Source: Mitosporidium daphniae
Taxonomy: Eukaryota
Assembly (NCBI RefSeq): GCF_000760515.2
Contig: NW_013546400.1
Location: 62,001-101,558 of the forward strand
DNA length: 39,558 nt
Direction: 5' to 3'
In this document: in pieces, positions 25,796 through 27,960 of the stretch
Layout: the number at the start of each line of letters is the position of its first letter
How positions within the stretch are numbered: position 1 is the stretch's first letter
The notes under the pieces: generated by a model
Told to the model about the DNA's origin: nothing
What the model saw: the letters and a program-made list of their open reading frames with translations, nothing else
Databases searched by the model: none
Translations under genes and position numbers: made by a program

Positions 25796-27960
25796 TTATT
25801 TTTCGCCGCCAAAAATCAGCCGCCCAAGTGCCGCACGGAGAATCACTAAGCGTGTGGCGTAGGGCTCCTTAGCCGCCATTTTCTTCAGCGGTAGCACGGT
25901 AAAGCCACCAGAAGGTAATGCAGACCCGCCGTCGAGAATTCCAATCAACAATCCCTCGTTCATAAGCAACAGGGAGAGCTTATCTTGAAAGACGACCTGA
26001 ATATTCCGTGTGCTGAGCCGAAAAAGCAAAATCCCATCAACAGCAGCGTATTTTACTAAAAACTCCATTTGCCCAGAGCCCGCAGAAGATGGAGTACTCC
26101 CTTGCTTGCGAAGAGCAACATTCTCAAACGTGCTTTGAAAGTACCTAAGCACTGTCATTTTCTTTGACAGTTCGCCTGGAAAATCAGGTACTGTGAATTC
26201 GAGCTTAACAAACTGTTTTTTTGGTGAGGTATTCTCTTGGTAGAGATACTCAAAACGACTATAAGTGAGAGGTAAGCAGTGGTTACCCAGATTTAGGATC
26301 TAGGATCATCATGGTGGCATCGTTAAAATATGCCCCCACATTGCCATCAGAACAGATATAGCCGAGTCCATATTTTGAAGAGTAGTCAAAAAAATCGACA
26401 ATGAAAAACTCATTCCCCTGCTGCGCTATTGATAATCATCATTATGATTGAAAAGCTTACATGGCGCAGTATGTTCCAGGGCCTCCAGGCTCTCCGCTGT
26501 CGAGATTACTCTACAAATATTGTGGTAAATAGACTCGATCAGTCCGAGTCTCCTCTCAACGACAGGTAAAACTCCGCCGAGGACAAGGCCCTTTTCAGTA
26601 TTGCCCGGGTGTCCCTTCTCTGCACCTATGGGATTGAATGTAGCTTTAGGACTAGGAGTAGTATGTTCTAGCATGTGGATGTTAGTATGGGCAGGAATAT
26701 TTTCTTTGGATCCCTCTTTGAAGGTGCGCATCGGCCTTGGCGAAGTTTCTGTGGCCAAAGTATTCTGTAATTGTGTTTCAATGCTTTGCAGAATGAACAT
26801 CCGAGATGAGGCCAGATCGTCATAAGAGGGATCCTTGATGATGACTTGGTTGAAAAACGAATGTTGAATCAACTCTTTGACTTTCGGCCGCTTATCTATC
26901 GGTAAAAAGCGGTGGATATCACCTGGATCTGTAGTCAGCATCAGTGAAATCAATGAGCATGCTGCAGTCGAGACACCCGTATTTTGGGGAAACGTATACG
27001 CATTCTCCTTGATATTTCTGCACAATAAATTGGATTGTTTCCCACCTGTAGATACTTTTCACCTCTTCCGACTGGAAAGGAGGCCGTCCAAAGAGCAGTG
27101 TATACCTATACGATGATTGGGACATTCATACATGATCACCCCCAGTGCCCAAACATCAACCTCCACGCTATGGCCTCGCACCTTATCGAAGAGTATTTCT
27201 GGAGCAATGTAGTTTGGCGTACCACAAATGGTCCTATCATAAGCGCTGCTTAGGAAAACTTTTTGCGGTCTGTGAGCTGGTCGAGCGTGGTAGCAAGACC
27301 AAAGTCTCCAACTTTGATTTCGTTTTCAAGGTTGAGGAACAAATTTCCCAGCTTCAGATCTCTATGGATAATCCGACGCGAATGGAGATAATCCAAAGCT
27401 GCAAGTATCATCCAAACGTACTGTTGCACCTCGTTTTCAGAGAGGGTCTTGCGGATCCGCAACAAATCAACCATTGTCTATAAACGTCAGTAAATGGCCC
27501 ATTGACATACCTATTGTGGGATTAGCATGTGGGTTGATACCTACACTCAGAACGGTTAGGGGTTTACCTTATTTTCGCATAATTCCATCAGCAGGTAGAT
27601 GTAGCGCTCATCGTGAAAAACTCTATAAAGCTTGACAATGTGTCGATGGTCGAGTAATTGGTGAATTTCAATCTCATTGAGCAGCTGAAATTACGACGCA
27701 GTTTGTACCTATTTGTAAGAACAGCCAATCGTGCCTTGCTTTGCGCTTTGAGCTTGACCACAGAATCCAGGAAAATGGCCTTCAATGCTAGTCGCTTTCC
27801 GGAAAGCTCGTCGATGACCTCGAAACACTTTGCAAATCCGCCCTTTATGATGATTGTGATTGGATGCACATACCTCTCCCAATTTCTTGCCAAGCTTAAA
27901 GGTAAAGCCGTGGTGGACAATTACATGAGGCGGGTCAGGAAAGTTCCGATCTGCCTTCAT
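25796..27960 (-). CDS. Polo-like kinase (Cdc5/Plk1 family)
   Basis: [38 protein letters not shown], and polo boxes [14 protein letters not shown] and QVVFQD. Intervening sequences at 27843-27873, 27685-27734 (doublet), 27478-27567 (triplet), 27234-27259, 27106-27131, 27018-27045, 26896-26922, 26426-26460 and 26259-26286. Confidence 0.93.
27478..27567 (-). other. Three abutting tiny introns (27+30+33 nt) with zero-nt exons
   Basis: AAG|gtaaacccctaaccgttctgagtgtag|gtatcaacccacatgctaatcccacaatag|gtatgtcaatgggccatttactgacgtttatag|ACA, restoring MELCENK|TMVDLL. Confidence 0.8.
27685..27734 (-). other. Two abutting tiny introns (GC-AG 26 nt + GT-AG 24 nt)
   Basis: AAG|gcacgattggctgttcttacaaatag|gtacaaactgcgtcgtaatttcag|CTG, restoring [13 protein letters not shown]. 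Confidence 0.7.

What the first reader, a model, noticed from the sequence alone, without database searches (positions are those of the whole stretch)
27478..27567. Triple-stacked tiny introns with zero-length exons in the polo kinase gene: candidate recursive splicing at minimal scale
Seen: the 90 nt that must be removed to restore the kinase hinge (MELCENK|TMVDLL) parse exactly into three units of 27, 30 and 33 nt. Each starts GTA, ends TAG and abuts the next at AG|GT. The second and third have branch-like motifs (GCTAAT, ACTGAC). Each unit falls within this genome's 23-36 nt intron range and contains an in-frame stop. Known: recursive splicing at AG|GT ratchet points is described for very long animal introns, and fungal stwintrons are nested rather than tandem. 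Inference: a spliceosome limited to about 30-nt introns removes this region in three steps, or introns were serially inserted at one proto-splice site. A multi-step delay on a cell-cycle kinase could be regulatory.
Basis: partly seen in the sequence, partly recalled or inferred. Interest (0 to 1): 0.92.

Follow-up and report, generated by a model that had tools for sequence, protein, structure and literature searches.

The report
Three tiny introns stacked end-to-end
In a polo kinase gene of the water-flea parasite Mitosporidium daphniae, a 90-base interruption reads as three ordinary-sized tiny introns joined with nothing between them, and two more such stacks lie nearby, so the cell likely cuts them out one piece at a time, which would be stepwise splicing on an unusually small scale.

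Summary
The 90 nt (minus strand) parse into GT-AG units of 27, 30 and 33 nt, and homologues require all 90 nt to be removed. The organism is Mitosporidium daphniae. Of 59 intron positions I catalogued, 54 are single introns of 23-36 nt and 5 are longer. Three of those 5 are exact stacks: this one, a 26+24 stack in the same gene, and a 26+31 stack in Vps2. The chance of the two extra stacks is about 0.002-0.01. The units are no more alike than random introns, yet their joints are intact. A relative's read-through protein is compatible with the Vps2 joint being kept while unit 1 changed length. Stepwise removal is likely (0.65) but not shown, because no RNA was available. Unstacked introns of 88 and 91 nt in the same window argue against a 30-nt ceiling, and a housekeeping gene is stacked too, so a regulatory delay is unsupported. 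This scan's earlier, unchecked notes report the same arrangement in Rozella; this extends it to a second genus. Verdict: new variant of zero-length-exon recursive splicing.

The parts
27541..27567 (-). Stack B unit 1: 27-nt GT-AG unit (CTAAC A at -16, CTGA A at -7), follows exon AAG
   Evidence: model score at 44th percentile of single introns
27511..27540 (-). Stack B unit 2: 30-nt GT-AG unit (CTAAT A at -12)
   Evidence: 33rd percentile
27478..27510 (-). Stack B unit 3: 33-nt GT-AG unit (CTGAC A at -10), carries the final acceptor
   Evidence: 61st percentile
27568..27684 (-). 117-nt kinase exon (alphaC to hinge) flanked by a stack on each side; the same 117-nt exon is bounded by single introns in L013
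27709..27734 (-). Stack A unit 1: 26-nt GC-AG unit, follows exon AAG
   Evidence: 84 of 84 scored homologues, of 119 examined, have the same spacing as the model with all 50 nt removed
27685..27708 (-). Stack A unit 2: 24-nt GT-AG unit
   Evidence: weakest unit, 6th percentile
33162..33187 (+). Stack C unit 1 in Vps2/CHMP2: 26-nt GT-AG unit, follows exon AAG
33188..33218 (+). Stack C unit 2 in Vps2/CHMP2: 31-nt GT-AG unit; a homologous unit is inferred in the relative behind P0171
25796..27960 (-). Polo-like kinase gene (10 exons; 607 aa when both stacks are fully removed)
5961..6048 (+). Control: 88-nt unstacked intron in SF3B1
23677..23767 (-). Control: 91-nt unstacked intron in the MutS-family gene, with only one AG
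27072..27105 (-). Control: 34 coding bases that read GT...CAG directly after a single intron and must stay in the mRNA

Best explanation
The 90-nt block is a compound intron of three abutting standard-size spliceosomal units, which the spliceosome likely removes one unit at a time (zero-length-exon recursive splicing at about 30 nt per step). Shown: the parse, the need to remove all 90 nt, two further stacks, and unit sizes and signals like those of single introns. Inferred mechanism: this spliceosome pairs a donor with the nearest YAG 23-36 nt away, so an internal YAG at that distance gets used. The cut is harmless only if a donor follows at once. Long introns therefore either lack internal YAG (the 88- and 91-nt introns) or carry YAG|GT (the stacks). 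Neighbouring units overlap at the joint and cannot be engaged together, so removal would be serial. Any order gives the same mRNA. 5'-to-3' order is modestly favoured because the exon-end AAG before all three stacks would rebuild a strong AAG|GT donor at each step. Inferred origin: old exact tandem duplication of a tiny intron at an ancient intron site, since diverged, with selection keeping the joints. The stacks are probably neutral passengers rather than regulators, and one-step skipping may occur as a minor route.
For: 3 of 5 long introns parse completely, P about 1e-5. Leaving out the flagged block, 2 of the other 4 parse: P = 0.0016, 0.006 or 0.011 for length windows 23-36, 20-40 and 18-45. 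4 of 4 internal YAGs at least 20 nt from the donor are followed by GT, against a background GT frequency of 0.062; the two unstacked introns have 0 such YAGs where about 3 are expected. A scan without gene models ranks stack joints 1st, 2nd, 3rd and 8th of 18 candidate joints in the window. Units within a stack are no more alike than pairs of single introns (5 of 5 pairs at or below the median of 1431 pairs). Simulation shows 80% identity would have been detected, and at 70% identity or less neutral survival of four joints is 0.003 or lower. The read-through tail of P0171 (83% identical Vps2 exon) matches the window's joint plus unit 2 with at least 4 changes in 24 bases, the best of 79020 window 24-mers. 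Its only YAG|GY-compatible place in the 23-36 range gives a 31-nt unit 1, against 26 nt here. Exon AAG precedes 3 of 3 stacks against 2 of 54 single introns (p = 0.0003, noticed after the fact). Recursive splicing is documented in fungi.
Against: No splicing intermediate or lariat has been observed. The 88- and 91-nt introns show that one-step removal of 90 nt is within this spliceosome's reach. Branch motifs in units 1 and 2 of this stack sit further upstream (-16, -12) than the usual -8/-9. A 34-nt coding stretch in the same gene looks just as much like a unit (4th of 18) and must not be removed, so resemblance alone does not mean use. The P0171 evidence is back-translated: it fixes three of the five joint bases and leaves the A of AG and the T of GT open, and it concerns Vps2, not the kinase. 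In human short introns, conventional lariats outnumber recursive ones (PMC10156609). No trace of duplication remains among the units, so the origin is borrowed from unchecked Rozella notes. The sample is five long introns in one window, and two of the three stacks are in one gene.
Confidence: 0.65

Rival explanations
1. The block is spliced mainly in one step as a 90-nt intron; the internal joints are relics of old duplication or only occasionally used.
For: Unstacked 88- and 91-nt introns exist in the window. Internal branch motifs are off the usual position. NCBI models treat the block as one intron, but these are computed gene models, not RNA evidence (PMC12449221 passage). A unit-like coding stretch in the same gene is evidently ignored.
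Against: Units have diverged to background similarity while four of four joints and all unit lengths fit. Unstacked long introns lack internal YAG altogether. In stack A the outer donor is a GC, while the inner unit is a canonical 24-nt GT-AG intron.
Confidence: 0.24
2. The stacks are a regulatory device: multi-step removal delays or throttles polo kinase mRNA, with partly spliced forms sent to decay.
For: Every partial product of this stack keeps a stop codon (7 of 7 retention patterns). Two of the three stacks flank one kinase exon.
Against: The kinase gene has 9 of the 59 intron positions, so two stacks there are not surprising. The third stack is in Vps2. Earlier notes list unrelated housekeeping and flagellar genes in Rozella (unchecked). 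Short introns commonly hold stops.
Confidence: 0.07
3. Ordinary introns separated by micro-exons (for example 22 nt + 5-nt exon + 30 nt + 4-nt exon + 29 nt).
For: 3 of the 24 enumerated parses keep 9-12 exon bases and leave the frame open.
Against: They add 3-4 residues at the hinge, where 81 of 81 scored homologues have none. They need a GAG acceptor (0 of 54 single introns) or a 21-nt GC-AG intron below the observed size range.
Confidence: 0.04

Closest known systems
Zero-nucleotide-exon recursive splicing (ratchet points) in long Drosophila and mammalian introns (review PMC13149111, passages)
   Same: An acceptor AG directly followed by a donor GT, with removal in steps and no exon left behind.
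   Different: Described there for introns typically over 10 kb and as rare. Here whole blocks are 50-90 nt, each step is a standard-size intron of this genome, and 3 of 5 long introns in the window are so built. Steps are not demonstrated here.
Fungal recursive introns: Cryptococcus neoformans BOT1 (375 nt = 210 + 165; 10.1101/224170, passages) and Schizosaccharomyces pombe SPNCRNA.445 (336 nt; 10.1101/226894, passages)
   Same: Abutting U2 introns in unicellular fungi or their kin; BOT1 is a protein-coding gene.
   Different: Those are isolated cases, shown by spliceosome profiling; the BOT1 units are 165 and 210 nt. Here units are 24-33 nt, one stack has three units, and stacks recur.
Stwintrons, nested spliceosomal twin introns (PMC6616335, passages)
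   Same: [quoted passage not shown]
   Different: In stwintrons an inner intron interrupts a splice signal of the outer one and forces the order. Here units abut, no signal is interrupted, and the sequence allows any order.
Stacked ~29-nt introns in Rozella allomycis
   Same: Same head-to-tail architecture and unit size in a related lineage.
   Different: Several of those notes describe recognisable tandem copies. Here the units share no detectable similarity, which makes inheritance from a recent duplication an insufficient explanation for intact joints.

Membership tests
Zero-nucleotide-exon recursive splicing | Internal acceptor directly followed by a donor (YAG|GT), above chance | tested here: met
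Zero-nucleotide-exon recursive splicing | No exon bases retained between flanking exons | tested here: met
   By protein homology only:
Zero-nucleotide-exon recursive splicing | Each segment has its own branch point | tested here: inconclusive
   CTRAY in 3 of 3 units of this stack (6 of 54 singles), but at -16, -12, -10; units of the other stacks have A at -8 without CTRAY. No lariat data.
Zero-nucleotide-exon recursive splicing | Intermediates or separate lariats seen in RNA | not testable with these tools
   No RNA holder listed; contigs laid show no joints
Zero-nucleotide-exon recursive splicing | Joint conserved in relatives | tested here: inconclusive
   Vps2 joint compatible in P0171 by back-translation; no relative found for the kinase stacks
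Zero-nucleotide-exon recursive splicing | Very long host intron (typical in animals; not required in the fungal cases) | tested here: not met
   Blocks are 50, 57 and 90 nt
Stwintron | Inner intron interrupts the donor, branch or acceptor of an outer intron | tested here: not met
   Units abut end to end and each has intact terminal signals
Micro-exon cluster | Short coding exons between the introns | tested here: not met
   homologue spacing leaves no room
Recent tandem intron duplication | Sequence similarity among units | tested here: not met
   old duplication cannot be excluded

The most novel reading that the evidence does not exclude
Rozella-Microsporidia lineages with ~27-nt introns run recursive splicing as a routine, genome-wide mode. 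Long introns are built from standard ~30-nt quanta, ratcheted out 5' to 3' by rebuilding an AAG|GT donor after each cut, at hundreds of loci (rough extrapolation: 90-1300 stacks in 5.8 Mb). The joints are kept by selection long after the units have lost all mutual similarity.
Probability: 0.45. Interest if true: 0.85.

Novelty: new variant of a known kind. Interest (0 to 1): 0.7.

Why it matters
Recursive splicing is usually explained as a fix for very long introns. Stacks of 24-33-nt units would show it at the other extreme of size, where it follows from nearest-acceptor choice rather than from length. They give a compact natural test of three open questions: how a spliceosome re-uses a freshly made junction, whether introns can multiply at an existing intron site, and how order is set when two introns share a boundary. 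The intermediates differ by about 30 nt and can be resolved by RT-PCR. There is also a practical effect: public gene models fail at two of the three stacks (P0123 loses the kinase alphaC segment; P0173 loses part of Vps2), so annotation in this clade may hide many more.

Tried and rejected
Whole genome: none held, so no genome-wide scan was possible. RNA: no RNA holder listed; this is not evidence either way. The five runs laid are contigs, with no joints and no differences. Metagenome scan for kinase relatives: 80 loci; I inspected 15 of them by tblastn (8, 15). None looked like a close relative; only L013 was informative on intron position. Search for relatives' read-through proteins at the kinase stacks returned only this organism's own frame (1 of 1 candidate). 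The representative-protein search was queued and never finished (last try). Folding: none of the 5 long introns folds better than shuffles (z from -1.1 to +1.4), so a hairpin that shortens the 88/91-nt introns is not supported. Rfam finds no RNA inside any long intron. Tandem Repeats Finder finds no repeat over any stack. Avoidance of AG-ended exons before GT-starting exons is 0 of 16 against 6 of 38, not significant (p = 0.16). Rows reinterpreted before counting: five long NCBI introns (68 and 61 nt in IDH, 39 nt in the GHMP kinase, 86 nt in P0137, 86 nt in P0123) and one of 19 nt were judged mis-annotations and replaced by short introns or stacks. The IDH judgement rests on motifs recalled from memory. 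9 of the 54 single introns are lower-confidence; the other 45 give the same 23-36 range. Regions near 1-600, parts of the MutL gene and all untranslated regions were not modelled. Literature searches found no description of stacked tiny introns in Mitosporidium or Rozella. The library lacks most subscription journals, and I did not read the 2014 genome paper or bioRxiv supplements.

Full report
Source and gene. The exon after the block matches at 100% a protein that NCBI names as Mitosporidium daphniae polo kinase (P0003 and P0123), and proteins of neighbouring genes cluster with named M. daphniae records. The gene runs 27960 to 25796 on the minus strand and gives 607 residues without an internal stop when nine interruptions are removed. 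The region is identical in contigs of five public runs, one of which may be the window's source, so an assembly error is unlikely.

The observation. The 90 nt at 27567-27478 have one parse into units of 23-36 nt: 27, 30 and 33, each GTA...TAG with an in-frame stop. All 90 nt must go: the spacing from the hinge motif to HRDLK is 44 residues in the model and in 81 of 81 scored homologues (119 examined, 38 unscored, many redundant). Three micro-exon parses keep the frame open but add 3-4 residues and need a GAG acceptor or a 21-nt GC-AG intron. A full parse arose in 45 of 20000 base shuffles and 20 of 5000 dinucleotide shuffles. Because this block was picked out by eye from many windows, that figure alone is weak, so I looked for independent cases.

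Intron catalogue. From NCBI models mapped onto the window and three-frame reading I listed 59 intron positions in 18 genes. 54 are single introns of 23-36 nt (median 27; all GT; 48 TAG, 4 CAG, 2 AAG; adenosine peak at -8/-9), and 5 are longer. Six NCBI introns were reinterpreted before counting and nine singles are lower-confidence (see Tried and rejected).

Two more stacks. In the same gene, 50 nt at 27734-27685 parse as a 26-nt GC-AG unit plus a 24-nt GT-AG unit; 84 of 84 scored homologues need all 50 removed. In Vps2/CHMP2, 57 nt at 33162-33218 parse as 26 + 31; the flanking exons end at residue 101 and start at residue 102 of the CHMP2A chain (the second match is weak, E 0.057, but Pfam positions and four full-length homologues agree). 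Leaving out the flagged block, 2 of 4 long introns parse, P = 0.0016 to 0.011 depending on the length window. All seven units score inside the range of single introns. Four of four internal YAGs at least 20 nt from a donor are followed by GT. A scan without gene models put stack joints 1st, 2nd, 3rd and 8th of 18.

The other two long introns are not stacks: 88 nt in SF3B1 and 91 nt in the MutS-family gene, the latter with a single AG. Both junctions align without a gap to solved homologues. PMC6349667 also predicts a 152-bp intron in M. daphniae S23 (passage). So there is no hard 30-nt ceiling, and a one-step 90-nt excision is possible. These two introns contain no internal YAG where about three are expected, which fits a rule of nearest-acceptor use: purge the YAG or follow it with a donor. 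They show no special folding. Also against: branch motifs in units 1 and 2 lie at -16 and -12, and 34 coding bases at 27105-27072 mimic a unit as well as most real ones, yet encode conserved kinase residues. That mimic follows an exon ending CAT, whereas all three stacks follow AAG (3 of 3 against 2 of 54). This suggests, as inference from few cases noticed after the fact, that the rebuilt exon-donor junction decides whether a second cut is made, which would mean 5'-to-3' order.

Evolution. The positions are old. Locus L013, from a distant eukaryote, has single introns of 32 and 35 nt around the same 117-nt exon, and P0178 appears to read into an intron at the Vps2 site. Units within a stack are no more alike than random intron pairs. 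Simulation shows that 80% identity would have been seen, and that at 70% or less four joints would survive neutrally with probability 0.003 or lower (a rough model). Two close relatives read through the Vps2 site. The tail of P0171 matches the window's joint and unit 2 with at least 4 changes in 24 bases, the best of 79020 window 24-mers, and implies a 31-nt unit 1 instead of 26. P0172 stops at codon 9, compatible with a 27-nt first unit, with nothing visible beyond. These are back-translations, not DNA; two of the five joint bases are undetermined, and at this distance a joint could persist by descent alone. No relative was found for the kinase stacks. Origin by old tandem duplication is my preferred reading, taken partly from unchecked notes on Rozella. 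Insertion at the AAG|GT boundary or subdivision by point mutation cannot be excluded.

Mechanism and odds. Most likely (0.65) the units are excised serially as ordinary tiny introns, and the stacks are tolerated passengers. One-step removal with relic joints gets 0.24, a regulatory device 0.07, micro-exons 0.04. No step of splicing is shown; no RNA was available.

What is known. Zero-length-exon recursive splicing is described for long animal introns (PMC13149111, passages), and for single fungal introns of 375 nt (10.1101/224170, passages) and 336 nt (10.1101/226894, passages). Abutting introns are distinguished from nested stwintrons in PMC6616335 (passages). In human short introns conventional lariats prevail (PMC10156609, passages). 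The exon junction complex suppresses re-splicing in flies (PMC8184009, abstract and outline); I could not test for it here. Passages of PMC13393502 (with one supplement part), PMC12449221 (genome size 5.83 Mb), PMC12534020, PMC8476143, PMC5381614 and the first quarter of PMC6349667 did not mention stacked introns. Nine searches found no report for this clade, within a library that lacks most subscription journals. This scan has noted the same architecture many times in Rozella, but not in Mitosporidium.

Verdict. A real feature and a new variant of a known kind: compound introns built of minimal units, recurring within one window and, if the Rozella notes hold, across two genera. Three stacks in 39.6 kb extrapolate very roughly to 90-1300 per genome (biased upward because the window was chosen for a stack). 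Interest 0.7.

Noticed in passing
window 27734-27685 (-) and 33162-33218 (+): Two further intron stacks (26+24 with a GC donor; 26+31). Public models P0003, P0123 and P0173 are wrong at these places and lose conserved protein segments.
   Followed up: yes
window 5961-6048 (+) and 23767-23677 (-): Unstacked introns of 88 and 91 nt with no internal YAG. One lies in SF3B1, a branch-point factor; both are followed by exons starting GT. All three longest introns are 88-91 nt, which is unexplained.
   Followed up: partly
window 27105-27072 (-): Coding bases that mimic a 34-nt intron directly after a real intron; a natural negative control for re-splicing.
   Followed up: partly
window 8062-9927 (+): Gene with a SAS-6 N-terminal domain (Pfam), a centriole protein, in a parasite that I recall as having no flagellated stage.
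   Followed up: no
window 10116-10234 (-), 15435-15506 (-), 20854-21037 (-): 5S rRNA, a tRNA and U3 snoRNA between protein genes.
   Followed up: no
window 13101-13164 and 34791-34861: Short tandem duplications of period 33 inside coding exons of Dis3 and the GHMP kinase, showing that duplications of intron-like length do occur in this genome.
   Followed up: no
window 39065-38998, 38772-38712 (-), 34941-34979 (+), 23892-23807 (-): Long introns in public models that are better read as a 25-29-nt intron plus coding sequence; annotation in this species appears to overlook tiny introns often.
   Followed up: partly
window 25796-29350: The kinase and RPAC1 proteins are each listed by NCBI on two contigs, of 180591 and 304173 bases, perhaps a contig overlap or a second haplotype.
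   Followed up: no
window 29457: One N inside the Cwc15 coding sequence.
   Followed up: no
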